Of a DNA stretch of 23,245 bases, positions 2,090 through 23,245 are shown in pieces. The notes beneath the pieces were generated by a model that worked only from the letters and a program-made list of their open reading frames with translations, did no database searches and was not told where the DNA came from. Every line of letters begins with the position of its first letter. Within the stretch, counting starts at the first letter, position 1. The DNA is taken from the IMG/VR virus record IMGVR_UViG_2718217709_000004; one strand, 5' to 3'. A program made the translations under genes and the position numbers. The DNA is from a virus. Lineage: Duplodnaviria > Heunggongvirae > Uroviricota > Caudoviricetes.

Positions 2090-3274
2090 ATGAGTGAAAC
2101 TCGTTTTCATGGTGCCCGTGTTACGGAAAATACCGACCTGGTAACAGCGATTAACGATGTTGATTCCAGCGTTATCGGTATCGTGGCAACGGCGGATGAT
2201 GCGGACGCGAAGCTGTTCCCGCTGAACAAGCCCACACTGCTGACCCGCGTCAATGACGTGCTGGGAAAATGCGGGACAACGGGGACGCTTTATCGTGCGC
2301 TTAAGGCCATCGCAGACCAGGTGAGTACAAAGGTGATCGTCGTTCGCGTGGCTGAACACAAAGAAGAAGACGGAAAAACGCAGGATCAACTGGTTATCGG
2401 TGGTTCTGAATCTGACGGCAGCTATACGGGGATGTATGCGCTGCTTGTTGCAGAGCAGGATGAAAGCATCGGATACCGTCCGCGTATTCTGGCCGCGCCG
2501 GAGCTGGACACGGAGGCGGTAACAAAATCCCTGTGCGTGATTGCGGGTAAACTGCGCGCGTTTGTGTATGCCTCATGTCACGGCTGTAACACGATGGCTG
2601 AGGCGATTACCTACCGCCAGAAATTCAACGAACGTGAGGTGATGCTCTTATGGCCGGACTTCATCGCCTACAACCCGAAAAGTGGCAAAAACGAAACGTT
2701 CCCCGCGCCTGCCTATGCGTGCGGCCTTCGTGCGTACATTGACCATGAGCAGGGTTGGCACAAATCGCTGTCCAACGTTCCGGTTAAAAATGTGCTGGGG
2801 ATGTCCAGGCATGTGTTCTGGTCGTTGCAGGCCGAAGACAGTGATGCCAACAGCCTCAACAACAAAGAAATCACGACCATTATTCGTCGCAACGGGTTCC
2901 GCTTCTGGGGCAACCGCACACCGGAAACGAACGCCTACATCTTTGAGGTGTATACCCGAACCGCACAGGTGCTGGCTGATTCAATTGCGGAAGCGCAGTT
3001 TGAAACCATCGATAGTCCACTGACGCCTGCGAACGTGAAGGATGTTATCAGTGCCATCAGGGCAAAACTGGATTCACTGGTGACTGCCGGGAAACTGATT
3101 GGGGCGTCGTGCTGGTATGACGTGGTGGATAACAGCACCACGAATTTACGTCAGGGGCGTGTGCGTATTCGCTACAAATATACGCCCGTTCCTCCGCTGG
3201 AAGACATGGAGCTTTACCAGTCGTTTACTGATGAATTCTTTGGTCCCGCATTTGCGGTGCTGGGAGGTGCCTGA
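2090..3274 (+). CDS. FI: tail sheath protein (P2 gpFI-like)
   Basis: 394-aa ORF of P2 FI size, immediately followed by tube, chaperone and tape measure genes; the stop overlaps the FII start (ATGA). Confidence 0.85.
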   Translation: MSETRFHGARVTENTDLVTAINDVDSSVIGIVATADDADAKLFPLNKPTLLTRVNDVLGKCGTTGTLYRALKAIADQVSTKVIVVRVAEHKEEDGKTQDQLVIGGSESDGSYTGMYALLVAEQDESIGYRPRILAAPELDTEAVTKSLCVIAGKLRAFVYASCHGCNTMAEAITYRQKFNEREVMLLWPDFIAYNPKSGKNETFPAPAYACGLRAYIDHEQGWHKSLSNVPVKNVLGMSRHVFWSLQAEDSDANSLNNKEITTIIRRNGFRFWGNRTPETNAYIFEVYTRTAQVLADSIAEAQFETIDSPLTPANVKDVISAIRAKLDSLVTAGKLIGASCWYDVVDNSTTNLRQGRVRIRYKYTPVPPLEDMELYQSFTDEFFGPAFAVLGGA

Positions 3275-3786
3275 TGGCTGTACCAAAACATCTTCGCTTT
3301 TTTACGCTGTTTGTGGATGGTGAAAACGAAGTGGGTAAGGTGACGTCCGTCACCCTGCCTAAACTGACGCGCAAAACCGACAGCTACCGGGGTGGTGGCA
3401 TGATGGGTGCGGTAAGTATTGATCTCGGTCTGGACGACTCCGCGCTTGATGCGAGCTTTGTCATGGGGGGCGCAGTTCGTGAGCTGTTCCTTAAGTATGG
3501 CGGCACGATTGACGGCACGCTACTGCGTTTTGCGGGTGAATACTACACCGATGCAGAAAGCGACCTGTATGAAGTCGAAATGCGCGGACGCGTGACGGAA
3601 ATTGATATGGGGGAAGCCAAACAGGGCGAAGCCACATCACACACTTACGCCATTAAAAACACCTACTACAAGCTGAGTGTTAACGATCGTCCGTTGTGGG
3701 AGATTGACCTGCTGAACTTCATTTACCGGAAGGACGGCAAGGACATTGTGCCCGATCGCATCCGTTCCGCGCTTGGGCTTGGCTGA
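3274..3786 (+). CDS. FII: tail tube protein (P2 gpFII-like)
   Basis: 170-aa ORF translationally coupled to FI; size and position match gpFII. Confidence 0.85.
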   Translation: MAVPKHLRFFTLFVDGENEVGKVTSVTLPKLTRKTDSYRGGGMMGAVSIDLGLDDSALDASFVMGGAVRELFLKYGGTIDGTLLRFAGEYYTDAESDLYEVEMRGRVTEIDMGEAKQGEATSHTYAIKNTYYKLSVNDRPLWEIDLLNFIYRKDGKDIVPDRIRSALGLG

Positions 3787-4370: not shown

Positions 4371-7164
4371 TATCCGGGTCGCTTTCAGCGCCGTTGACAG
4401 GCTGACCCAGCCTGCCGAAAACGCCCGCCGCCTGATGGGGCAGTTTGGTGACTCCATCCAGCGAACGCAGGGGGCGATCAAAAATCTCGAGCGTCAGGCG
4501 CGTTCATTTGAGCGCGCCCGCGACGCTGTCAGTAAAGCGGATGCGGGTATCGTGAAAGCACGACGCCAGCTTAACGCCCTTAATCAGTTACAACGCACGG
4601 GTACAGTGCTCAGCGAAAAACAACAAAAGCTGATGCAGCAGTTAAGCACCCGGCTTGAACGCCTGAATGAATCGCGCACGCGGGAAATTCAGAAAATGCG
4701 GGAGCTTGGCGGAGAGCTGAAACGCCACGGCATTTCCCTGACAGGCAGCGATAACACCATCCAGCAGGCCATCAGACGCACCGAACAGTACAACAATCAG
4801 CTTGAACGCGAACGGCAGGCGCTTGCGCGTGTAACGCGGGCGCGTGAGCGGTATTCGCGCGCGCAGGAAACAGCGGGAAAACTGAAAACAGGTGGTGCAC
4901 TGGCAATTGGTGCGGCAGCGGCGGGCGGCTATGCTGCCGGGCGTTTTTTGCAGCCTGCGATCGGGTTCGGGAAAGAGATGTCCCGCGTTCAGGCACTGAC
5001 GCGAATCGACCAGAACAGCCCGCAGTTTAAGGCGCTGCGTGAGCAGGCGTTAAAACTTGGCTCTGAAACGCAGTTCACCGCAGGCGATGCCGCCAGTGGG
5101 CAGGCATTTCTGGCAATGGCTGGCTTCACACCGCAGGCCATTCAGGCTGCGCTTCCCGGCGTGCTGAGCATGGCAACGGCTGGCGGTATGGACCTTGGCG
5201 AGACGGCAGATATTGGCTCAAATATCCTGACGCAGTTCGGCCTCTCCGCTGACCAGATGGACCGGGTCGGTGACACGCTTACAGCAGTGTTTACCCGTAC
5301 TAACACTGACCTTCGCGCACTGGGCGAAACCATGAAATATGCAGGTCCGGTGGCGGGTAAGCTGGGAATATCGCTGGAGCAGGCCGCAGCGATGGCGGGC
5401 GTGCTGGCGAATATGGGTATCAGAGGGAGTGATGCCGGGACGGCAATGCGTGCCAGCCTGGCTCGTCTGGCATCACCGCCAAAGGCGGCAGCAGAAGCGC
5501 TGAAAGAGCTGGGTGTGTCCGTCTCTGATGCGAACGGCAAAATGCGCCCGATGGAAGATGTGCTGGCCGACCTTTATAAAGCCACCCGTAAATACGGGGA
5601 AGTTGACCGGGTATCGTTCTTTAAGGACATTGCCGGGGAAGAGGCTTTCACGTCGTTTATGGCTCTCGTTGATGCGGCGGGTGACGGCTCCCTGCCCAAA
5701 CTGAGAAAAGAACTTGAGGGCGCACGCGGTGAGGCTGAACGCACGGCAAAGGTTATGGCCAATAACCTTGATGGCGACCTGAAATCACTCGGCAGTGCAT
5801 GGGAAGGGCTGCGTATCCGCATTGCAGATCTGATTGATGGTCCGCTGCGTTCTGTCACGCAGTGGCTCACGCGGGTGGTCTCAAAGGTGACGGCGCTGGC
5901 ACAGGCCCATCCGGTACTGACGCGCCAGTTACTGATAGCAGGCGGTGCGCTGCTGGCAATGACTGCAACGGTTGGCTCGTTGTCGCTGGTTATTGGAGTG
6001 CTTCACGGGAAGCTGGCCACGTTGCGTCTTGGTTTTTCTCTCCTGACCGGATCAATGAATGCTGTCAGGCTCCTGCCAGCACTATGGGGAATGGTGACGG
6101 GTTCCGTTTCGTTACTGGGGGGCGCTATCGGGGCGCTGTTCAGCCCGGTCGGATTGATTGCTGCTGCGTTTGTGGCTGCGGCAGTTCTCATCTGGAAATA
6201 CTGGGAACCCATCAAGGCGTTTTATGCCGGGGTGTTCAGCGGGATTATGGAGCGGCTGGCCCCGTTACGCGAAACCTTTGAACGGTTTGGTCCTGTTTTT
6301 GACGCAATCGGAAGCGGGATAAGTCAGGTGTTTAACTGGTTTAAATCGTTGCTGTCACCGATGGAGTCCAGCAAGGAAACGCTGGATAAATGTACCAGTG
6401 CTGGCGAGATATTCGGTAACGTTCTTGGCGGTGCGTTACAGCTTGTTCTGACGCCCGCAAAAATGTTGCTGGATACGCTGGCGTGGATACTTGAAAAACT
6501 CGGTGTGCTTCCGGATGAAGCGGAAAGGGCGAGAAAGAAAATCGAAGACGCACAGCGTGCGGCCATTCTTCAGGACAAGGTTGCTCTGTTTCAGGGAGAC
6601 ATTGCGAAAATCAATCCGCCGAAGTCTGCGGAAAATGGCAATGGCACCGGAGGTGATAAACCCAAAGACAATAAACCGCTCACAGACAGCAATACCGGTA
6701 CGCTACGCAGACTCAGCAAAATTGCTGATAACACAGGTAAGCTGGTTGATGAGACGAAAAAACGTATTGGCCCCGGCGATATTGTCTTTAAGAACCTGCC
6801 CCGCGCACTTGCCGTTCGTGGGGAGTGGCAGGAGCGGAAGATTGTGCAGGTCAGTAAGCCTGCCCCCGCAATTAATATCACACCCGTGGTCCCGGCTCCG
6901 CTGCCTCCGGCGCTGGTCCCTGTTGTTGCGGCCAGCTCCCGCCCGGTGGCGGAGGCCATACGATCTCCAGTGGCATCAGTTCCTGTAACTTCCCGTAACC
7001 GGGAGCCTGTTGCCTCCGGATTTGGTGGTGAAATTCATGTTCATCTGCATAACGTTGTTACGCAGAATCCCCGCGAACTGGCGAAACTGGTCGGTGAAAT
7101 GGTCAGGGCAGAAATGGAACGGCGCGCCCGTGCCGGGCGTGGCAGTTTTTACGATAAAGATTGA
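4357..7164 (+). CDS. T: tail tape measure protein (P2 gpT-like)
   Basis: Long ORF (about 940 aa) with an N-terminal coiled-coil region, central hydrophobic/Gly-Ala-rich segments and a Pro-rich C-terminus. Start is uncertain between 4321, 4348 and 4357; 4357 (MKTLDIRV) overlaps the E' stop. Confidence 0.85.
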   Translation: MKTLDIRVAFSAVDRLTQPAENARRLMGQFGDSIQRTQGAIKNLERQARSFERARDAVSKADAGIVKARRQLNALNQLQRTGTVLSEKQQKLMQQLSTRLERLNESRTREIQKMRELGGELKRHGISLTGSDNTIQQAIRRTEQYNNQLERERQALARVTRARERYSRAQETAGKLKTGGALAIGAAAAGGYAAGRFLQPAIGFGKEMSRVQALTRIDQNSPQFKALREQALKLGSETQFTAGDAASGQAFLAMAGFTPQAIQAALPGVLSMATAGGMDLGETADIGSNILTQFGLSADQMDRVGDTLTAVFTRTNTDLRALGETMKYAGPVAGKLGISLEQAAAMAGVLANMGIRGSDAGTAMRASLARLASPPKAAAEALKELGVSVSDANGKMRPMEDVLADLYKATRKYGEVDRVSFFKDIAGEEAFTSFMALVDAAGDGSLPKLRKELEGARGEAERTAKVMANNLDGDLKSLGSAWEGLRIRIADLIDGPLRSVTQWLTRVVSKVTALAQAHPVLTRQLLIAGGALLAMTATVGSLSLVIGVLHGKLATLRLGFSLLTGSMNAVRLLPALWGMVTGSVSLLGGAIGALFSPVGLIAAAFVAAAVLIWKYWEPIKAFYAGVFSGIMERLAPLRETFERFGPVFDAIGSGISQVFNWFKSLLSPMESSKETLDKCTSAGEIFGNVLGGALQLVLTPAKMLLDTLAWILEKLGVLPDEAERARKKIEDAQRAAILQDKVALFQGDIAKINPPKSAENGNGTGGDKPKDNKPLTDSNTGTLRRLSKIADNTGKLVDETKKRIGPGDIVFKNLPRALAVRGEWQERKIVQVSKPAPAINITPVVPAPLPPALVPVVAASSRPVAEAIRSPVASVPVTSRNREPVASGFGGEIHVHLHNVVTQNPRELAKLVGEMVRAEMERRARAGRGSFYDKD

Positions 7165-7176
7165 GGAGTCATGGCC

Positions 7177-7665
7177 ATGATGATGATCTACGGCATGTTT
7201 GTTTTTGAGCTGCGCACGCTGCCGCATCAGCAGTTACAGCAAAACAAAAGCTGGCGGCATGTGAAAAATGAACGCGTTAACCGTTCAGCAAGCTGGCAGT
7301 ATATCGGTGCAGGTGATGATCGCATCGTTCTTTCTGGTGTGCTTTATCCTGAAATTACAGGTGGCGAAGTGTCGCTGTCGCTGCTGACCACGCAGGCGTA
7401 TACAGGACGACCCTGGCCTTTGATTGATGGCGTCGGGCAGATTTACGGCATGTATGTCCTGACCGGAACGAACACGACCCGTTCCGAGTTTGATCGCTAC
7501 GGTAAGGCGAAAAAGATAGAATTTTCACTGACCCTTGAACGCTGTGATGAGGATTTGCGGGAGCGCCTGCAATCCTCATCGTTCAGCGATATGCTGTCCG
7601 GCTTCAAAGATAAAGTGACATCATCCCTTAACAGCGCGGCCAGTTCAGTTAAAGGGCTGTTCTGA
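7177..7665 (+). CDS. U: tail protein gpU-like
   Basis: Motifs VLSGVLYPEITGG and WPLIDG...IYGMYV parallel P2 gpU. Start chosen at the second or third ATG (7177) for spacing from the GAGGAG RBS at 7163-7168. Confidence 0.8.
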   Translation: MMMIYGMFVFELRTLPHQQLQQNKSWRHVKNERVNRSASWQYIGAGDDRIVLSGVLYPEITGGEVSLSLLTTQAYTGRPWPLIDGVGQIYGMYVLTGTNTTRSEFDRYGKAKKIEFSLTLERCDEDLRERLQSSSFSDMLSGFKDKVTSSLNSAASSVKGLF

Positions 7666-7682
7666 TTTAATGCTGGCCACTC

Positions 7683-7714
7683 ATACCTGGTAATAAGTGG
7701 CCAGTCTTAACACT
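7683..7714 (+). terminator. hairpin downstream of U (possible terminator)
   Basis: 9-bp stem ctggccact / agtggccag with a 14-nt loop; the downstream tract is only weakly T-rich. Confidence 0.35.
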
Positions 7715-7827
7715 CACCATTTGATTGCACCCGCGTTAACGATTTGTTACTGGGTATCAGACATGCTGGATAGCCAGTAGAAACATACCATTAAAATTAT
7801 TACAATAATTGGTCACATGATTATCTT

Positions 7828-8391
7828 ATGCTGAATAATAGAGATATGAATATTAATGAACTTAAAGACTGTATTCACTATGAAGTAATCGGTAGCGAGC
7901 GTCCTTTCTCCTGGCGAAAGGCAATTGTTCGCGCAATAAAACATAGAAGACTTCGTTATTTATTTTGGTGGCGCATAGCCAAATACCTTTTTGATAAAGG
8001 CGGATACTGCCGGAAGATTGCGGGGAAAATAGAACGTTTCATTCTTGATAAATATAATGTAACAGTCCCTTTAACTGTAAATATAGGGAAAGGCTTTGAT
8101 ATTTCTTATCTCAACAGTGTTGTTATCGGTCACAAAGTAACAATCGGTGAAAATTGTTCAATAAAACCGGGGGTAACTATTGGGCTACGTGGTGATTTTA
8201 ATGATATGGATATTGTTATAGGACATAATGTGACCATTGGTTGTAATGCCACCATTCTTGGTGGCAAAGTGCGTATAGGAAACAATGTCACAATAGGTGC
8301 TCATGCATTGGTATTGCATGATATTCCTGATGATTCAACATTCATCACTAAATTTCAGTCTGAAGTTATCTGCTCGTCCTCCCGCACATAA
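7828..8391 (+). CDS. hexapeptide-repeat (left-handed beta-helix) acetyltransferase, serine acetyltransferase/WcaB-like; cargo gene
   Basis: Repeated [LIV]-G-x-x-x-x hexads ([21 protein letters not shown]...[34 protein letters not shown]) and an N-terminal [13 protein letters not shown] segment typical of this acetyltransferase class. The region 7680-8400 is markedly AT-rich against GC-rich phage flanks. Start codon uncertain (7828 or 7846). Confidence 0.75.
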
Positions 8392-12167: not shown

Positions 12168-12474
12168 TACGCCCACCTTCGCTGATGGTGAATGACTCAC
12201 AGCGCGCCGCCTGTATGTCGCTGATGGCCATATTCTGTGTGGGTTCGATTATCTCCACGCGTTGCACACCGTGCACATGCAGTGCGGCAGCAATGGCGGA
12301 CAACGCCACGTCCTGACCGATAAGCCCCTGCTCAGCCAGCCACTTCCTGAACGACGATTCAGCCGCAGCCAGAATAGGTTCGGATTCCGGGCCGGGATAA
12401 AAGTACAGTTTTGCATTCAGCCGCCATGTCACGATTCTGGCGCTCTGACGGGCATGGCGAGAGATAGTGCTCAA
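12160..12474 (-). pseudogene. J: baseplate gpJ C-terminal fragment (5'-truncated)
   Basis: Only about 100 codons remain of a ~300-aa protein (...ILAAAESSFRKWLAEQGLIGQDVALSAIAAALHVHGVQRVEIIEP...). No J N-terminus, W, V, S or R genes lie upstream. Confidence 0.7.
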
Positions 12475-12619
12475 CGTTCACGCGGGCAGCGTAAACATCC
12501 GGGTTGAAGTTCTCGGCGGCTTCACGCAGATGTACCGGGCTGATTTCGCGGCCATCAACAGTTGATCCGGAGACAGCCACGCGAAACTTTTTGCGGGATG
12601 TCTTTTTTTCATTAGCCAT
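12359..12619 (-). pseudogene. O: capsid scaffold gpO N-terminal fragment fused out of frame to the J remnant
   Basis: MANEKKTSRKKFRVAVSGSTVDGREISPVHLREAAENFNPDVYAARVNVEHY parallels the P2 gpO N-terminus; GAGGGG RBS upstream. After about 50 codons the frame runs through J-derived sequence and stops at 12359. Confidence 0.7.
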
Positions 12620-12773
12620 AGTTTTTGCCCCTCTGACTGGTTCTTCAGTCATGATGGCAAAGCGTAACAGGCTGATACAAAGGGCTTTTGTTGTAAGAAA
12701 ACGGCCAGAACAGGGGGTTAAGGAGAACGGTTTCGCGCGCGGGTAATCTTCCTGTAATTACTCAGGGGGAGCA

Positions 12774-14036
12774 ATGATTCAGGACGCTTTTGTGCGCCAG
12801 CGTGCGCGGCAACTTTACTGGCAGGGTTATCCGCCCGCAGAAATATCACGTCTGATGGGAATAAACCCGAACACGATTTATGCGTGGAAAAAACGCGACC
12901 AGTGGGATGAAACGCCCCCCGTGCAGCGTGTCACGCAGTCCATCGATGCGCGCCTCATCCAGCTTACTGAAAAACAGAATAAAACAGGCGGTGACTTTAA
13001 GGAAATAGACCTGCTGACCCGGCAGCTTAAAAAGCTGCATGATGGCCAGCCGGATGTGATGGCCGCAGGAAAGAAAGGCCGGGCGAAAAAACTTAAAAAT
13101 CATTTCACGCCGGAACAGATTGCCGCACTGCGGGAAAAAATCATCAGCAGGCTGGAGTGGCATCAGCGGGGCTGGTTTGACTCCCTGACACTTTGCAGGG
13201 AAGCCGGGATACGTAACAGGATGATCCTGAAATCCCGACAGATTGGGGCGACCTGGTATTTTGCACAGGAAGCTCTGCTGATGGCGCTGCGTGACGATGT
13301 GGCGCAACCTTACCAGCGTAACCAGATTTTTTTGTCTGCGTCGCGTCGTCAGGCGTTCCAGTTTAAAAGCATTATTCAGAAGGTCGCGGCTGAAGTTGAT
13401 GTGGAGCTGAAAGGGGGCGATAAAATCATCCTCTCCAACGGCGCAGAGCTGCATTTTCTCGGCACTTCTGCTGCGTCGGCACAGTCCTATACGGGCAATT
13501 TTTATTTTGATGAATTTTTCTGGGTCAGTCGCTTTGCTGAACTGCGCAAGGTGGCTGGCGCTATGGCAACCCTCAGCGGACTGCGGCGCACCTACTTCTC
13601 CACGCCATCCACCGAAACGCACGAGGCGTACGCCTACTGGAACGGCGACCGCTGGAACGAGAAAAAGGCCTCGCATAAACGCCAGCGTTTTTCTGTGGAC
13701 TGGAAAACGCTGCATAACGGGCTTATCTGCCCTGACCGGACTTGGCGGCAAATTGTCACGCTGGAAGATGTGGTTAATCACGGCTGGAAACACACCGATA
13801 TCGACGAAATTCGTGATGAAAACACCGAAGACGAGTTCCTCAATCTCTATATGTGTGAGTTTGTCCGCGAAGGGGAATCGGCATTTAACCTGAATATCCT
13901 GATTGGCTGCGGTGTTGACGGATACGACGACTGGAAAGACTGGAAACCTTTTGCTCCCCGCCCGATGGGGAATCGTCCGGTATGGATTGGGTATGACGCA
14001 AACGGCAGCAGTGGCAACGGCGACATGCCAGCTTGA
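12774..14036 (+). pseudogene. P: terminase large (ATPase) subunit gpP, 3'-truncated
   Basis: N-terminal two-thirds of a P2-type large terminase (MIQDAFVRQRARQLYWQGYPPAEISRLMGINPNTIYAWKKRDQWDE...). The ORF ends at 420 aa and the A gene stop is only about 110 bp away, so no portal Q or cos can follow. Confidence 0.8.
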
Positions 14037-14101
14037 TGTTGGTGGAGCCGTCGTCGATACAAATTTTCATGTCGCTTTTCCTTATGTTGATTAATTAATC
14101 G

Positions 14102-20287: not shown

Positions 20288-20491
20288 TTAGCTGTTAGCC
20301 AAAGCGTCTTTTAACATCGCCACAAGGTTTACTTCAGGCTTTTCCATTTTGGCGCGTTTGGGGCGGATAATAATTCGACCGTCAGCCAACATCTTTTTGC
20401 ATGTATTAAGAGGGATACCTGTTATCTCTGCATATTTCTGCAGGGATACATAGGGGGCATTCACATTGATATTGATGGTTATACCTGACAT
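20288..20491 (-). CDS. small DNA-binding protein, Cox/Apl-like (possible excisionase / switch regulator)
   Basis: 67 aa; YVSLQKYAEITGIPLNTCKKMLADGRI resembles the helix-turn-helix of P2 Cox-type proteins; second gene of the lytic-side operon. Confidence 0.45.
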   Translation of the reverse strand: MSGITININVNAPYVSLQKYAEITGIPLNTCKKMLADGRIIIRPKRAKMEKPEVNLVAMLKDALANS

Positions 20492-20507
20492 CCCACTAGC
20501 CTCCTGA

Positions 20508-20714
20508 TCAGGAAGATTTGTTTTGTTCTTTCTGGGTTAGCTCTAGGCCGCGAAGGAAGATCATGCGCGCCATGTTAGAGGATGAGCGTTGTTCTTTAGC
20601 TGCCATTTCATCAATGACGGCTCGCTCCTCGAGGGACAGCCGAAGTGCCAGTCTTGGACCTGTGGCGGTGTTACGCGGAATGCGTGATCTGGTATCGTGA
20701 AGAACTTGTTTCAT
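20508..20714 (-). CDS. ribbon-helix-helix (Arc/CopG-like) regulator, first gene of the lytic-side operon
   Basis: ALRLSLEERAVIDEMAAKEQRSSSNMARMIFLRGLE fits the beta-strand / helix / helix pattern of RHH proteins; transcribed divergently from the repressor gene. No obvious RBS. Confidence 0.5.
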   Translation of the reverse strand: MKQVLHDTRSRIPRNTATGPRLALRLSLEERAVIDEMAAKEQRSSSNMARMIFLRGLELTQKEQNKSS

Positions 20715-20756
20715 AGTGGTATATTGTGATCATCTAATAGCTCGTGAAATCATTTT

Positions 20757-20774
20757 GGTATCAAAAAAGATACC
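20757..20774. promoter_or_regulatory. palindromic candidate operator in the divergent switch region
   Basis: Perfect inverted repeat ggtatc-aaaaaa-gatacc between the divergent RHH and XRE genes; a second ggtat half-site and a tgatca palindrome lie at 20718-20732. Confidence 0.4.
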
Positions 20775-20790
20775 TGTCAAGGTTTTTTGT

Positions 20791-21195
20791 ATGAAAAATG
20801 ATATTGGTCAGCGGTTGCGTGAGGAAAGGGAAAGATTGGGACTTAGTCAAGTTGCCATGAGCGACATTGGTGGAGTCAAAAAGCTAACTCAGCTTAGATA
20901 TGAGAAAGGAGATAGCTTTCCTGATGCTGCGTATTTGGCAGCGCTGTCTCGTTTTGGCCTTGATGTTCAGTATGTTGTGTTGGGAATTCACTCACCTGAA
21001 ACTTATAACGATGATGAGCAGGAGTTGATTACTCGCTTTCGAGCAGCTTCGTTAGATGTGAAAAACGCGGTGATTGGGGCTTTAAAAGGTGCGATCAGTG
21101 AAAAGGAAACTCAGCCATCAGGACGTGAGTTAAATATTTCTGGTGGTAATAACCGTATCGCTGGTCGTGACTATAACGAAACTAAGGGTAGGTGA
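20791..21195 (+). CDS. XRE-family helix-turn-helix repressor (CI-like immunity repressor candidate)
   Basis: IGQRLREERERLGLSQVAMSDIGGVKKLTQLRYEKGDSFPDAAYLAALSRFGLDVQYVVLG is a classic Cro/CI-type HTH; divergent from the lytic operon and co-directional with int. Start taken at ATG 20791 (MKNDIGQ), possibly leaderless, rather than the upstream GTG at 20716. Confidence 0.7.
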   Translation: MKNDIGQRLREERERLGLSQVAMSDIGGVKKLTQLRYEKGDSFPDAAYLAALSRFGLDVQYVVLGIHSPETYNDDEQELITRFRAASLDVKNAVIGALKGAISEKETQPSGRELNISGGNNRIAGRDYNETKGR

Positions 21196-21210
21196 TAGTA
21201 GGGAGGTGAC

Positions 21211-21861
21211 ATGGCCGTCAACTCAAACGGTTCAAACAATCGCGTTGCTGGGCGTGATTTTCACGAAAAGAATATTCAGATAGAGCGATATGATGGTTCT
21301 CATACCGTCAATATCGCAATCCCTTCGAATAATGATGATGACGATCGCCCTTTGCTTAAGGCTCAGCGTAAGGAGCTAAATAGCTTGGTTGCTGCTATTG
21401 CAGAAGCTAGCAATACTGAAGCGTTTATTATTTGGCAAAAAGTACATGCGGAGATTGGTGTAGCTGGTATTGATGATATGACAGTAAATCAATATAAAAC
21501 AGCGGAGAGTTTTCTGCATGCAATGCTTGAGCGATGTAAAGATCATGATGCCTGTAAGGCTCTTGTAAGTTTATTACTACGTAACAGTGAAGACTGTGGA
21601 CTTCGACAAAAACTTCTGCGGTATTGCCATATCAATTTCGGTACAGGACGTTTAAACGATCTTACTCGTTCTCAGTTACAGTCTGCATTGTCGTGGTTAG
21701 AGCAACAATCGGCATCAAGCCACACAGAGAGTTCGACCTTACCAGAAGTCCGACTTCGTGCTTCAGAATTAATCCGACTTTATCCAAAAGAAATAATATT
21801 CTTTATCTGCGTAGGGGTTTTGGTAGGCGGTGTCATTTCTAGGGCGTTTTTTAATTTGTAA
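21211..21861 (+). CDS. tail-anchored membrane protein of unknown function (216 aa)
   Basis: Strong GGGAGG RBS; soluble N-terminal domain with a DDDD tract and a C-terminal hydrophobic helix IIFFICVGVLVGGVI. Its N-terminus repeats the C-terminal motif of the upstream repressor. AT-rich. Confidence 0.6.
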   Translation: MAVNSNGSNNRVAGRDFHEKNIQIERYDGSHTVNIAIPSNNDDDDRPLLKAQRKELNSLVAAIAEASNTEAFIIWQKVHAEIGVAGIDDMTVNQYKTAESFLHAMLERCKDHDACKALVSLLLRNSEDCGLRQKLLRYCHINFGTGRLNDLTRSQLQSALSWLEQQSASSHTESSTLPEVRLRASELIRLYPKEIIFFICVGVLVGGVISRAFFNL

Positions 21862-21890: not shown

Positions 21891-22238
21891 ATGAAAGTAA
21901 AAAAGGTTCAACTATTAGTTACTTTTTTATCTATGTTTTCTTTTTCCGCCGTCGCAATGCCTTTTAAAACTATTGAACGTGAGAGTTTCAATGGGGTATG
22001 GCCATTTAATACTGATGAGGTTCAATTACAGTGTCTTGATGGTAATCCTTATGTGATGAATTTTGACGATAATAAGTTATATGCACTTACAGGTTTGGCT
22101 CGAATAAAAGGTAAAACATTTGGTGCGTTACCGTTAGATAACAATAATCCATTTTGGCTAGATAATGATGCCGCCCCAGGGTTAAAAAAGAGCCTGGGGG
22201 ATGTCACTAAGGCTGCATTTGATTTATGTGATAAGTAA
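21891..22238 (+). CDS. secreted small protein with a Sec signal peptide, DUF2511 (YebY)-like
   Basis: N-terminal MKVKKVQLLVTFLSMFSFSAVA signal peptide, two Cys, WPF and YALTG motifs; GAGGTAA RBS. The family assignment is from memory, not a search. Confidence 0.55.
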   Translation: MKVKKVQLLVTFLSMFSFSAVAMPFKTIERESFNGVWPFNTDEVQLQCLDGNPYVMNFDDNKLYALTGLARIKGKTFGALPLDNNNPFWLDNDAAPGLKKSLGDVTKAAFDLCDK

Positions 22239-22243
22239 CTAAA

Positions 22244-23245
22244 ATGTCGGTTCGTAAGATTCCATCAGGTAAATGGCTTTGCGAATGTTATCCCTACGGG
22301 GCATCGGGAAAACGCATTCGTAAACAGTTTGCGACAAAAAGTGAGGCGCTCTCTTATGAGCGCCGTTTAATGAATAGTAGAGTTGGAGACGAGTTTCAAG
22401 ATGGTTCTGGTCCTCGTCTTTCTGAGTTGATTGCTCGTTGGTTTGAGATGTACGGTAAAACCTTGTCCTCTGGTGCAGAGCGCAAAGTCAAACTTGAGGC
22501 GATTTGTTCCAGGCTGGGAGATCCATTTGCTTCTCAGTTTGACAAAAATATGTTTGCCACTTATCGGGAAAGAAGGTTATCAGGAGAGTGGAATCCCAAG
22601 GGGAAGAAAAAACTTAGTGAAGCAACCGTTAATCGCGAGCAGTCATATCTACATGCTGTTTTTGCCGAACTGAAGCGCCTTGGGGAGTGGTCTGGTGAAA
22701 ACCCCCTGACTGGTATTCGCAAGTTTCGTGAGGAAGAAAAGGAACTGGCGTTTCTGTATGTAGATGAGATTGAACGCCTTCTGATTGCGTGTGATGAGTC
22801 ACGGAATAAAGATTTGGGGGTTGTTGTCCGTATTGGGCTTGCGACTGGTGCTCGGTGGAGTGAAGCAGAAGGGTTAAAGCAATCTCAAGTACTGCCCGGT
22901 CGAATCACATTTGTTAAAACTAAAGGAAAGAAGAACCGCACTGTACCGATTTCACCTCAATTGCAGGCTATGCTTCCCAAAAAACGAGGAGCGCTATTTT
23001 CACCATGTTATGAGGCTTTTGACGCTGCAATTAAGAGAGCGAAGATCGAGCTTCCTGATGGGCAATTAACTCATGTGCTACGTCACACGTTTGCCAGTCA
23101 TTTTATGATGCGGGGCGGAAATATTCTTGTGTTGCAAAAAATACTGGGGCATAGCGATATAAAAATGACTATGCGTTATGCGCATTTTGCTCCAGGTCAT
23201 TTAGAGGCTGCTGTTGAATTGAACCCTTTTGACAATAGAGGGTAA
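22244..23245 (+). CDS. int: P2-type tyrosine integrase
   Basis: 333 aa; N-terminal GKRIRKQF...KSEA and C-terminal ...HVLRHTFASHFMMRGGNILVLQKILGHSDIKMTMRYAHFAP (catalytic R, H-x-x-R and Y) parallel P2 Int. The stop is at the window edge; att is expected beyond it. Confidence 0.85.
   Translation: MSVRKIPSGKWLCECYPYGASGKRIRKQFATKSEALSYERRLMNSRVGDEFQDGSGPRLSELIARWFEMYGKTLSSGAERKVKLEAICSRLGDPFASQFDKNMFATYRERRLSGEWNPKGKKKLSEATVNREQSYLHAVFAELKRLGEWSGENPLTGIRKFREEEKELAFLYVDEIERLLIACDESRNKDLGVVVRIGLATGARWSEAEGLKQSQVLPGRITFVKTKGKKNRTVPISPQLQAMLPKKRGALFSPCYEAFDAAIKRAKIELPDGQLTHVLRHTFASHFMMRGGNILVLQKILGHSDIKMTMRYAHFAPGHLEAAVELNPFDNRG

What the first reader, a model, noticed from the sequence alone, without database searches (positions are those of the whole stretch)
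21157..21268. Peptide motif shared by the repressor C-terminus and the next protein's N-terminus, across a triple in-frame stop
The repressor ends ...GGNNRIAGRDYNETKGR and the next ORF begins ...GSNNRVAGRDFHEKN. The two ORFs are in the same frame, separated by TGA-TAG-TAG and a GGGAGG RBS. The DNA copies differ at many synonymous positions while the peptide NNR(I/V)AGRD(Y/F)xE is kept, which argues for selection on the motif in both proteins. This could be a shared interaction or degradation tag linking repressor and downstream effector, or a relic of an ancestral single gene.
Basis: seen in the sequence. Interest (0 to 1): 0.6.

Follow-up and report, generated by a model that had tools for sequence, protein, structure and literature searches.

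The report
Repressor tail matches neighbour's N-terminus
A prophage repressor and the membrane-anchored protein encoded right after it carry the same short glycine/asparagine-rich tag, a pairing kept in many unrelated temperate phages, which suggests an undescribed physical link between the lysogeny switch and the cell membrane.

Summary
The 134-aa XRE repressor of a P2-like E. coli prophage ends in LNISGGNNRIAGRDYNE. The next protein (216 aa) begins VNSNGSNNRVAGRDFHE (BLASTP E=2e-5; 0 of 5000 shuffles reach the score).

The same repressor family in P2-like, BcepMu-like, B3-like and KS10-like phages is followed by a protein, nearly always membrane-anchored, whose N-terminus copies the repressor's tail. 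The motif differs between lineages but matches within each pair (fixed-window permutation z=10.4, 0 of 20000).

Synonymous sites are saturated (210 identical codons against 224 expected), so selection on the protein, not recent gene conversion, keeps the match. The downstream proteins are not all homologous; only the N-terminal motif and, usually, a transmembrane helix are constant.

Both motifs are predicted disordered in the monomers. They are rich in N/G/Q/V and poor in L/P/K, the bias reported for bacterial amyloid signalling motifs shared by adjacent genes.

The same frame and the triple stop are incidental, and no fused ORF was found.

Best reading: a homotypic matching tag, possibly amyloid-like, couples the repressor to a membrane partner. 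The direction and the trigger are inferred only.

The parts
20791..21195 (+). Immunity-repressor gene (134 aa, XRE-type HTH; stop included)
   Evidence: ORF. It matches Pfam HTH_31/HTH_19/HTH_3 below their cut-offs and PHROG_8 'transcriptional regulator' at E=2.5e-14. It lies divergent to the Arc-like and Cox-like genes. The AF2 model has the HTH plus two helices up to residue 106.
21130..21180 (+). Repressor C-terminal motif LNISGGNNRIAGRDYNE (residues 114-130)
   Evidence: BLASTP alignment. It is conserved in Enterobacterales homologues. It lies in the stretch 106-134 with pLDDT below 50.
21181..21192 (+). Short basic end of the repressor (TKGR) after the motif
   Evidence: K/R-rich ends follow the motif in nearly all repressor lineages and are absent from the downstream copy.
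21193..21201 (+). TGA TAG TAG, three in-frame stops
   Evidence: Sequence. The triple stop is specific to this lineage: 2 of 39 junction types.
21201..21206 (+). GGGAGG ribosome-binding site of the downstream gene
   Evidence: Sequence, four bases before ATG 21211.
21211..21861 (+). Gene for the 216-aa tail-anchored membrane protein (Flk_N family, PF27202; phrog_5825)
   Evidence: It matches NCBIfam Flk at domain level only: E=8.6e-16, 58 bits against a cut-off of 353.
21217..21267 (+). N-terminal motif VNSNGSNNRVAGRDFHE (residues 3-19)
   Evidence: pLDDT is below 50.
21268..21333 (+). Conserved extension of the N-terminal region (residues 20-41, KNIQIERYDGSHTVNIAIPSNN), strand-like pattern, predicted disordered in the monomer
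   Evidence: Invariant or near-invariant I24, D28, G29, H31, T32, N34, A36, I37 and P38 in alignment A2. Residues 1-41 have pLDDT below 50.
21358..21729 (+). All-helical Flk_N domain (residues 50-173)
   Evidence: AF2 helices 50-173 with pLDDT 74-93. PF27202 named Flk_N; NCBIfam Flk match over residues 37-166. No significant fold match in the PDB.
21784..21855 (+). C-terminal transmembrane helix (residues 192-215)
   Evidence: AF2 helix 192-215; hydrophobicity scan.
21891..22238 (+). DUF2511 secreted protein gene (context, same operon)
   Evidence: Pfam DUF2511 at 28.4 bits against a cut-off of 21. No terminator-like site lies between the repressor and int.
22244..23245 (+). Integrase gene (context; reaches the window's last base with no stop codon inside the window, though the identical RefSeq locus annotates a complete 333-aa integrase ending with its stop just beyond)
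   Evidence: Pfam Int_N and Phage_integrase; RefSeq annotation of the identical locus L001.
20288..20714 (-). Divergent early genes: Arc-like (20508-20714) and Cox-like (20288-20491)
   Evidence: PHROG_3431 at E=1e-28 and PHROG_575 at E=1e-27.

Best explanation
**What it is.** The two peptides are the two halves of a matching tag. The tag is a short G/N/Q-rich segment with alternating hydrophobic residues, unstructured in the free monomers. One copy sits at the C-terminal end of the prophage immunity repressor. The other sits at the cytoplasmic N-terminus of the membrane-anchored protein(s) encoded immediately downstream and co-transcribed with the repressor.

**How it most likely works.** I propose that the two copies bind each other directly by like-with-like strand pairing. 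The most probable form is an in-register beta assembly of the kind used by amyloid signalling motifs. This would physically couple the repressor to the inner membrane protein.

**Favoured direction (inferred).**
- The variable membrane protein is the input: a sensor or nucleator.
- The repressor is the output.
- Clustering of the membrane protein nucleates co-assembly with repressor tails. That sequesters or inactivates the repressor, giving a switch-like route to derepression for repressors that have no LexA-type self-cleavage domain.

**Shown.**
- The motif pair is present and conserved.
- It co-varies between lineages.
- The match is kept at the protein level, not the DNA level.
- The downstream architecture is constant: motif, then a variable middle, then usually a transmembrane helix.

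**Inferred.** The direct binding, its amyloid-like nature, and the direction and trigger of the signal.
For: 1. **Both copies are conserved.**

2. **The pair is a mobile two-gene module.** It occurs in P2-like prophages and in Mu-like transposable phages of Gilliamella, Pectobacterium, Pseudomonas, Bordetella, Burkholderia, Aeromonas and others. It is also in the isolated phages BcepMu (gp17/gp18), B3 (ORF18/ORF20) and KS10 (gp13/gp12).

3. **The motif is lineage-specific but matched within each pair.**
   - With fixed windows (last 40 aa against first 45 aa) on 41 dereplicated loci, the sum of own-pair scores has z=10.4 and is reached by 0 of 20000 permutations.
   - Among 17 motif classes other than NRxAGRD, 14 tails match their own partner best.

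4. **The match is where it should be.** An unbiased six-frame search of +/-3 kb puts the best match to the tail on the same strand, 0-170 nt after the stop, in most motif-bearing loci. Motif-less paralogues next to a response-regulator gene give only random hits.

5. **Synonymous sites are saturated.** Over 52 pairs, 513 identical residues use 210 identical codons, with 224 expected. This excludes recent duplication or gene conversion.

6. **Downstream proteins differ in family but not in plan.** Some have Flk_N, and others are 54-341 aa without it, including multi-TM and Cys-rich forms. All carry the motif at residues 0-25 and nearly all have a TM helix. One locus has two successive motif-headed membrane proteins.

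7. **Both motif regions are conserved yet predicted disordered.** AF2 gives pLDDT below 50 for both in the monomers.

8. **The composition fits amyloid signalling motifs.** N is 10.3%, G 15.3%, Q 8.2% and V 10.0%, while L is 1.4%, P 0.8% and K 2.4%. This is the bias reported for bacterial amyloid signalling motifs: enriched in Q, N, G, V, I and depleted in K, P, L; about 25 aa (bioRxiv 10.1101/2020.01.06.895854).

9. **There is a working precedent in E. coli.** The Bab/Agp pair shares a 20-aa amyloid motif at the C-terminus of one protein and the N-terminus of the next (bioRxiv 10.1101/2024.11.07.622273).

10. **The repressor body is much better conserved than the motif.** The body has 19 invariant columns across the 22 sequences of alignment A1, while the motif diverges beyond recognition. 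That fits self-complementary pairing better than docking onto a fixed site.
Against: - No binding was tested.
- Within the NRxAGRD class, position-by-position covariation in 19 pairs is not significant (p about 0.06-0.10). The covariation therefore rests on differences between deep lineages. It could reflect repeated old duplications of the tail onto new downstream genes rather than continuous co-evolution.
- The partner domains are not those of known amyloid signalling systems. There is no NLR/STAND sensor and no Bell/HeLo effector.
- KS10 gp12 has no obvious TM helix, so membrane anchoring is not universal.
- Both proteins are made from one operon in the lysogen. A constitutively active sequestering partner would be counterproductive, so a trigger must be postulated.
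- Generic features such as the N/G/Q bias and disorder also fit non-amyloid linear motifs.
Confidence: 0.55

Rival explanations
1. Same direct coupling, opposite direction. The repressor is the sensor or hub, and the membrane proteins are the effectors. When repressor molecules are brought together or released (for example on many operator copies, or after attack by a foreign antirepressor), their tails template the N-termini of the membrane proteins. The clustered transmembrane helices then block DNA entry or damage the membrane, giving exclusion, abortive infection or lysis timing.
For: - One conserved repressor is paired with variable, sometimes multiple, membrane partners, like one sensor with several effectors.
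- In known amyloid signalling systems the effectors target membranes.
- Minimal partners consist of little more than motif plus a TM helix (L033, 57 aa).
- The downstream N-terminal region is longer than the repressor tail and may hold more than one strand unit.
- In the Mu-like phages the pair lies just upstream of the holin and endolysin genes.
Against: - In the known systems the protein with the C-terminal motif is the effector and the one with the N-terminal motif is the sensor. That maps the repressor to the output side.
- A repressor sitting on operators in every lysogen would be clustered all the time.
- No toxicity or exclusion data exist.
Confidence: 0.25
2. The two motifs do not touch each other. 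Both are recognised by a common third factor such as a protease, adaptor or chaperone. The membrane protein would then act as a decoy or competitor that tunes repressor stability (a shared degron or decoy).
For: - Terminal, disordered, conserved peptides are typical recognition tags.
- Repressor tails end in K/R-rich stretches. From my own knowledge, not tested here, these resemble the basic C-terminal ClpX signal of MuA.
- The prophage carries a gene annotated as a ClpX C4-type zinc finger protein.
Against: - The motif varies by phage lineage rather than by host. Three or more variants occur within Enterobacterales: NRxAGRDYxE, GQFAGNQIINN and QIAGGNIY. This does not fit a conserved host protease.
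- No third gene is consistently linked across P2-like and Mu-like contexts.
- The same sequence sits near a C-terminus in one protein and near an N-terminus in the other. Terminal degrons are not usually read that way.
Confidence: 0.15
3. The similarity is a relic without present function. It would be left over from the fission of one ancestral gene, or from a tandem duplication across the gene boundary.
For: - The two genes are adjacent, and in this lineage they are in the same frame.
- Duplication across the boundary is the simplest origin for the second copy.
Against: - Both copies are among the best conserved parts of their proteins although synonymous sites are saturated.
- The pairing recurs with non-homologous downstream proteins.
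- The frame and the stop count are not conserved.
- No HTH-Flk_N fusion exists among 138 representatives from 1.84 billion proteins.
Confidence: 0.04

Closest known systems
Amyloid signalling motif pairs of adjacent genes: fungal HET-S/NWD2, bacterial BASS1-10 Bell/NLR pairs, E. coli Bab/Agp (BASS11)
   Same: - A motif of about 15-25 aa is shared by the C-terminus of one protein and the N-terminus of the product of the adjacent gene.
- The motif is enriched in N/G/Q/V and depleted in L/P/K.
- It is kept at the protein level and is unstructured in the monomer.
- One partner acts at the membrane.
- The Bab/Agp pair is also carried in E. coli prophage hotspots.
   Different: - The partners here are a phage immunity repressor (HTH) and tail-anchored or multi-TM proteins (Flk_N and others). 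They are not an NLR/STAND or TPR sensor with a Bell/HeLo pore former.
- The hosts are Proteobacterial temperate phages.
- Amyloid formation is untested.
- Sequence membership in BASS1-11 is untested.
Effector-associated domains (EADs) and other homotypic adaptor modules of bacterial conflict systems (recalled from Kaur, Burroughs, Iyer and Aravind; Kaur and colleagues are cited)
   Same: The logic is the same: one small module on two neighbouring gene products couples a core protein to interchangeable partners.
   Different: EADs are folded helical, Death-like domains. Here the module is a short, disordered, strand-prone peptide.
Proteins co-transcribed with a phage repressor that modulate the switch: 434 Hex (PMC3564112, abstract seen); lambda RexA/RexB (own knowledge)
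   Same: The gene is expressed from the repressor transcript in the lysogen. Its proposed action is on repressor inactivation, or on a membrane partner.
   Different: No shared peptide between repressor and partner is described for those systems, and there is no sequence relationship to them.
Flk, the tail-anchored flagellar regulator of Salmonella and E. coli
   Same: The central helical domain is homologous: NCBIfam NF007987 at E=8.6e-16 over residues 37-166, precomputed PF27202 Flk_N. Both have a C-terminal membrane anchor.
   Different: - The score is far below the family cut-off (58 against 353 bits).
- True Flk proteins (MQPxSG..., 330-400 aa) lack the N-terminal motif.
- They are chromosomal and not next to a repressor.
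Mu repressor C-terminal tail, which controls repressor stability through ClpXP (own knowledge, not tested here)
   Same: A short C-terminal tail of a transposable-phage repressor decides the repressor's fate.
   Different: The repressor family is different, and Mu has no downstream protein carrying a copy of the tail.

Membership tests
Amyloid signalling motif (ASM/BASS-type) gene pair | A short motif (about 20-25 aa) shared by the products of adjacent genes, C-terminal in one and N-terminal in the other | tested here: met
   Window pair. Twenty-seven dereplicated pairs with motifs of 9-25 aa. Position confirmed by the six-frame search.
Amyloid signalling motif (ASM/BASS-type) gene pair | Composition bias: enriched in Q, N, G, V, I; depleted in K, P, L; conserved G/N/Q with patterned hydrophobic residues | tested here: met
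   Motif against the rest of the same proteins: N 10.3 vs 3.2%, G 15.3 vs 6.5%, Q 8.2 vs 5.6%, V 10.0 vs 7.0%; L 1.4 vs 11.0%, P 0.8 vs 3.5%, K 2.4 vs 4.9%. I is not enriched (5.9 vs 5.2%).
Amyloid signalling motif (ASM/BASS-type) gene pair | Partners are an NLR/STAND-type or other immune sensor and a Bell/HeLo-type membrane-targeting cell-death domain | tested here: not met
   The partners are an XRE HTH repressor and Flk_N or other TM proteins. PADLOC gives no hit for the downstream protein.
Amyloid signalling motif (ASM/BASS-type) gene pair | The motif forms cross-beta fibrils or prion-like foci, and one partner templates the other | not testable with these tools
   This needs peptides or GFP fusions.
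Amyloid signalling motif (ASM/BASS-type) gene pair | Match to a published BASS/FASS family profile or an ASM predictor (PCFG, asmscan) | not tested
Exact motif strings are absent from the paper library.
Flk (flagella biosynthesis regulator, NF007987) | Whole-protein score above the curated cut-off (353 bits) | tested here: not met
   58.1 bits, matching residues 37-166 only.
Flk_N domain family (PF27202) | Presence of the Flk_N helical domain | tested here: met
   Precomputed PF27202 on the near-identical cluster and on 100+ homologues, named Flk_N. The model is not in the local Pfam copy.
Phage immunity repressor of the XRE/CI type | N-terminal helix-turn-helix domain; gene divergent from the early (cox/cro-like) operon and upstream of int | tested here: met
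   HTH matches, AF2 fold, gene order. Homologues are annotated as the repressors of KS10, BcepMu and Ps59. Repression itself is not tested.
SOS-inducible CI/LexA-type repressor | C-terminal S24 peptidase (self-cleavage) domain | tested here: not met
   The protein is 134 aa with no Peptidase_S24 hit. The model is HTH plus two helices plus a disordered tail.
Antirepressor (Ant/Rha-type) | Homology to Ant/Rha families and binding of the cognate repressor | tested here: inconclusive
   There is a weak PHROG_245 'anti-repressor Ant' hit (E=0.004, residues 49-108). Two Rha/Ant-like proteins carry a Flk_N-like C-terminal domain (P0351, P0372). Binding is not testable here.

The most novel reading that the evidence does not exclude
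Temperate phages of several families (P2-like, BcepMu-like, B3-like, KS10-like) run part of their lysis-lysogeny control through prion-like amyloid templating. A membrane-anchored sensor would nucleate a cross-beta assembly through its N-terminal motif. That assembly would propagate through the matching C-terminal tails of the repressor pool and switch the repressor off, all-or-none. This would be the first amyloid signalling pathway whose output is a transcription factor, and the first used by a virus to decide its own life cycle.
Probability: 0.25. Interest if true: 0.92.

Novelty: new variant of a known kind. Interest (0 to 1): 0.8.

Why it matters
**An open question becomes testable.** Repressors of this family have no self-cleavage domain. 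To my knowledge, how their prophages (BcepMu, B3, KS10, and a P2-like element present in about 10% of complete E. coli genomes) are induced or communicate with the cell is not settled.

**The link is compact.** A conserved, pair-specific peptide tag joining the repressor to a membrane protein is a concrete mechanism that two short peptides can test.

**If the tag works by amyloid-like templating.**
- Amyloid signalling would extend from cell-death immunity to the control of gene expression.
- It would extend to viruses.
- It would offer a compact, orthogonal set of matched tags for synthetic coupling of proteins. At least ten sequence variants exist, each matching its own partner best.

**If it is a simple tether.** It would still define a new class of membrane-anchored partners of phage repressors, and it would give a function to the Flk_N family in phages.

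Tried and rejected
1. **Read-through or fusion of the two ORFs.** The frame and the stop number are not conserved, and no fused protein is in the 1.84-billion-protein library.

2. **Recent duplication or gene conversion.** Rejected by codon identity at chance level.

3. **A DNA- or RNA-level repeat.** Nucleotide identity over the motif is only 48-81%, and no third copy exists in the window.

4. **Structure prediction of the pair.**
   - Only the monomers could be modelled.

5. **Fold search of the 216-aa model against the PDB.** Nothing was significant; the best hit had E=0.87.

6. **Defence-system libraries.** PADLOC gave no hit for the downstream proteins.

7. **Fine covariation within the NRxAGRD class.** Not significant with 19 pairs.

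8. **Literature.**
   - Exact motif strings gave 0 papers.
   - Searches on Flk/prophage/repressor, tail-anchored/prophage, BcepMu gp17/gp18 and amyloid/phage repressor found no description of this pairing.
   - The KS10 genome paper lists gp12 as 'no significant match'.

9. **Isolated phages.** The Flk_N partner is nearly absent: 5 records for the E. coli protein and none for the Pseudomonas one.

10. **Caveat.** The motif segments there were delimited on own pairs, which favours own-pair scores. The unbiased test is.
Full report
**1. What is in the window**

The window is a P2-like prophage of E. coli. The 1.2 kb around the finding is 100% identical to chromosomal loci of many strains. It is found in 519 of 5426 complete E. 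coli genomes, 477 of them at 99% identity or more.

The RefSeq annotation of an identical locus shows tail, capsid, terminase, portal and replication genes and an integrase.

The lysogeny operon lies on the + strand:
- an XRE-type repressor of 134 aa (ATG 20791 to TGA 21193-21195);
- a 216-aa protein (21211-21861);
- a DUF2511 secreted protein (21891-22238);
- the integrase (22244 onwards).

Arc-like and Cox-like genes lie divergently on the other strand. No terminator-like site separates the four + strand genes.

**2.

- The repressor ends ...LNISGGNNRIAGRDYNETKGR.
- The next protein begins MAVNSNGSNNRVAGRDFHEKN.
- The two ORFs are in frame, separated by TGA TAG TAG, then GGGAGG, four bases and the ATG.
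- BLASTP gives 10/17 identities, E=2e-5 for the pair.
- None of 5000 shuffles reaches the Smith-Waterman score of 62 (mean 29.0, sd 4.6, maximum 56).
- Only 4 of the 10 identical residues share a codon, with 4.3 expected by chance.

**3. Both copies are conserved in their families**

- All 120 listed homologues of the downstream protein (E. coli, Klebsiella, Serratia, Enterobacter, Erwinia and others, 60-98% identical) start with xxNSxGxxNRxAGRDFxENxIQI.
- Repressor homologues from E. coli, Yersinia, Salmonella, Klebsiella, Serratia, Dickeya and Pectobacterium end with INVSGxGNRxAGRDYxExKK.
- More distant repressors end differently, for example QIFNGDISGQFAGNQIINNG or NTIRGEGQIAGGNIYTT.

**4. 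The key result: the motif changes between lineages but stays matched within each pair**

Contexts of distant repressors show the same two-gene arrangement inside Mu-like transposable phages, with transposase and MuB-like genes lying divergently and holin and transglycosylase genes downstream. The pairs read:

| Source | Repressor tail | Downstream N-terminus |
|---|---|---|
| Gilliamella | IRGEGQIAGGNIYTT | DNTAEQIAGRDIYNI |
| Pectobacterium | QIFNGDISGQFAGNQIINN | QEFNGTAQGQFSSRDIINI |
| P. aeruginosa | QQFNGPVGTVTSGDVVN | QQFHDRVHQVAAGDIKN |
| Metagenome phage | KQVFHGAVSGGVAARDIINN | MQEFQGNVDGGVAGRDIVNQ |

Scanning one genome per species and IMG/VR with a repressor alignment gave 160 more loci. 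Further variants appear there:

| Source | Repressor tail | Downstream N-terminus |
|---|---|---|
| Bordetella | QVFHGQVGQ | QIFRGQVGQ |
| Burkholderia | QEQVFHGSVGQAVKVEGN | KQEFNKPVGQAIQAGEAN |
| Jeongeupia | TVDYGNAQIGQASAGDIVN | TVSFGGAQIDQAAAGDINN |

Others are listed.

The same holds in three isolated and published phages:
- BcepMu gp17/gp18;
- B3 ORF18/ORF20 (ISVTGDGNRTAGRDFHE against IEVTGSNNIVAGRDFIE);
- KS10 gp13/gp12 (MVASGSGITQVGS against MSASGFGIIQVAG).

**5. Statistics**

- *Fixed-window test.* I compared the last 40 aa of each repressor with the first 45 aa of each called downstream ORF in 41 dereplicated loci, including motif-less ones. The sum of own-pair scores lies 10.4 sd above permuted pairings, and 0 of 20000 permutations reach it.
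- *Six-frame search.* For most motif-bearing repressors, a search of the whole +/-3 kb locus finds the best match to the tail on the same strand, 0-170 nt past the stop. Chromosomal paralogues without the motif, which sit upstream of a response-regulator gene in the P. putida group, give only scattered hits scoring 26-44.
- *Motif classes.* Among 17 classes other than NRxAGRD, 14 tails match their own partner best. In that test the segments were delimited on own pairs, which favours them.
- *Fine covariation.* Within the NRxAGRD class, covariation at single positions is not significant in 19 pairs.

**6. The match is kept at the protein level**

Over 52 distinct pairs, 513 identical residues use 210 identical codons, against 224 expected from local codon usage. 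Recent duplication or gene conversion is therefore excluded.

The own-pair excess requires one of three things:
- co-evolution of the two copies;
- conversion events old enough for synonymous sites to have saturated since;
- repeated old duplications of the tail onto different downstream genes.

Each of these implies selection for having the same peptide on both proteins.

**7. What the downstream proteins share**

- The motif lies at residues 0-25, and nearly all the proteins have one or two transmembrane helices.
- The middle part is a Flk_N domain in many. It is absent in others of 54-341 aa, among them multi-TM and Cys-rich forms.
- KS10 gp12 has a Flk_N-like middle but no obvious TM helix.
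- One Cellvibrio locus has two successive membrane proteins, each headed by a motif that matches the repressor tail.

In a library of 1.84 billion representative proteins, only 138 match the Flk_N profile:
- the phage-type members carry an N-terminal motif;
- true Flk proteins (MQPxSG..., 330-400 aa) do not;
- none is fused to an HTH;
- two Rha/Ant-like antirepressor-type proteins carry a Flk_N-like C-terminal domain.

**8. Structure**

- *The 216-aa protein.* Residues 1-41 have pLDDT below 50 although they are as conserved as the rest. Residues 50-173 form an all-helical domain, and 192-215 form a C-terminal TM helix. The PDB holds no significant fold match.
- *The repressor.* It has an HTH domain and two further helices up to residue 106, then a tail 106-134 with pLDDT below 50.

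Both motifs are thus conserved peptides that are unstructured on their own, as expected for segments that fold on binding. Predictions of the pair were not possible.

**9. Comparison with what is known**

A short motif shared by the C-terminus of one protein and the N-terminus of the adjacent gene's product is the signature by which amyloid signalling motifs were found in fungi and bacteria.
- Those motifs are about 25 aa, enriched in Q, N, G, V, I and depleted in K, P, L (bioRxiv 10.1101/2020.01.06.895854).
- Such a pair (Bab/Agp, BASS11) works in E. coli as an abortive-infection system (bioRxiv 10.1101/2024.11.07.622273).

The 27 dereplicated motif pairs here show the same bias:

| Residue | Motif | Rest of the same proteins |
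|---|---|---|
| N | 10.3% | 3.2% |
| G | 15.3% | 6.5% |
| Q | 8.2% | 5.6% |
| V | 10.0% | 7.0% |
| L | 1.4% | 11.0% |
| P | 0.8% | 3.5% |
| K | 2.4% | 4.9% |

In-register parallel stacking needs like residues on like residues. That would explain why the two copies must stay alike while the motif as a whole is free to drift.

The partner domains are different, however. Here they are a phage repressor and membrane-anchored proteins, not an NLR-type sensor and a Bell/HeLo effector. I therefore do not file the pair as a member of a described BASS family. It works like one in its genomic and compositional signature, and fibril formation is untested.

None of the papers I read mentions a repressor or HTH partner. 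The motif strings occur in no paper of the library. The KS10 genome paper gives no function for gp12.

**10. Mechanism**

*Best supported (confidence about 0.55).* The two motifs bind each other directly and so couple the repressor to the membrane protein. An amyloid-like form of that binding is plausible (about 0.3 overall).

*Direction.* I favour membrane protein to repressor, for three reasons:
- in known pairs the protein with the N-terminal motif is the sensor, and the one with the C-terminal motif is the output;
- the N-terminal-motif proteins are the variable ones;
- these repressors lack a self-cleavage domain, so they need another route to inactivation.

*Rivals.*
- The reverse direction, with the repressor triggering a membrane effector for exclusion, abortive infection or lysis timing, is a serious rival.
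- A common third factor such as a protease or adaptor is less likely. The motif varies with the phage lineage rather than the host, and no third gene is consistently linked.
- A functionless relic is very unlikely.

**11.

The same frame and the triple stop are peculiarities of the E. coli lineage. The frame is the same in 18 of 39 junction types, only 2 have three stops, and 8 have an overlapping stop and start. They play no evident part.

**12. Verdict**

The finding is real, statistically solid and much broader than first seen. As far as the searchable literature shows, it is undescribed. It is a new variant of a known kind of system, namely matched terminal motifs on adjacent gene products. 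It now involves the master regulator of lysogeny, and it can be tested directly with peptides and simple phage genetics.

Noticed in passing
L173 (BcepMu) 2450-3645; L174 (B3) 2444-3447; L175 (KS10) 2501-3559: Three long-published phages carry the same tail/N-terminus match: BcepMu gp17/gp18, B3 ORF18/ORF20 and KS10 gp13/gp12. B3 ORF20 is a multi-TM protein without Flk_N. KS10 gp12 has no obvious TM helix.
   Followed up: partly
L059 3411-3845 and 3861-4628: In a Cellvibrio MAG, two consecutive downstream membrane proteins each begin with a motif matching the repressor tail: HQHFHQPVGVVAGRDV and TQEFNGNVGQVAGGNIYN against QKFHGPVGQVSEGD. This looks like one repressor with two partners.
   Followed up: partly
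window 21181-21192, and the C-terminal ends of repressor homologues (P0121-P0223): After the motif, the repressors of nearly all lineages end in a K/R-rich stretch (TKGR, ENKK, RRRKTK, GKGKKRK). The downstream copy has no such stretch. It could be an aggregation gatekeeper, a DNA contact or a protease signal.
   Followed up: no
P0351, P0372: Two Rha/Ant-type 'antirepressor' proteins carry a Flk_N-like domain at their C-terminus. The window protein also has a weak PHROG_245 (Ant) hit over residues 49-108. The Flk_N domain may therefore belong to a wider phage regulatory-domain class.
   Followed up: partly
window about 6900-8000 (L001 6208-7307): By the RefSeq annotation of the identical locus, a truncated tail protein I gene abuts a truncated small-terminase (gpM) gene. 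The prophage thus looks defective, yet the module is present in 519 of 5426 complete E. coli genomes, 477 of them at 99% identity or more.
   Followed up: no
window about 12399-14070 (L001 11700-13371), minus strand: The prophage carries a gene annotated as a ClpX C4-type zinc finger protein, next to ParM-type plasmid segregation and partition genes. That is unusual cargo for a P2-like element. The zinc-finger gene may bear on repressor proteolysis.
   Followed up: no
window 20711-20722 and 20750-20761; 20752-20780 (minus strand): In the 76-bp divergent control region, a direct repeat TCAT(A/T)(G/T)TGGTAT is spaced 39 bp apart, and a promoter-like site (TTGACA-17-CAAAAT) points towards the Arc-like gene. 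These are candidate operators and the early promoter.
   Followed up: no
L039-L092 (many Pseudomonas loci): A chromosomal paralogue of the repressor lies upstream of a conserved response-regulator gene (MIRVLVVDDHDLVRTG...). I take this to be uvrY/gacA-like from memory, without testing it. The paralogue occurs in the P. putida group and lacks the tail motif, which made it a useful negative control.
   Followed up: partly
window 21891-22238; L174 3592-3978; L175 3552-4160: A secreted or lipoprotein gene often follows the membrane partner: DUF2511 here, the B3 ORF22 lipoprotein, and KS10 gp11 with a lipobox-like LALSAC. It might belong to the module, or it might be an unrelated exclusion gene.
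   Followed up: no
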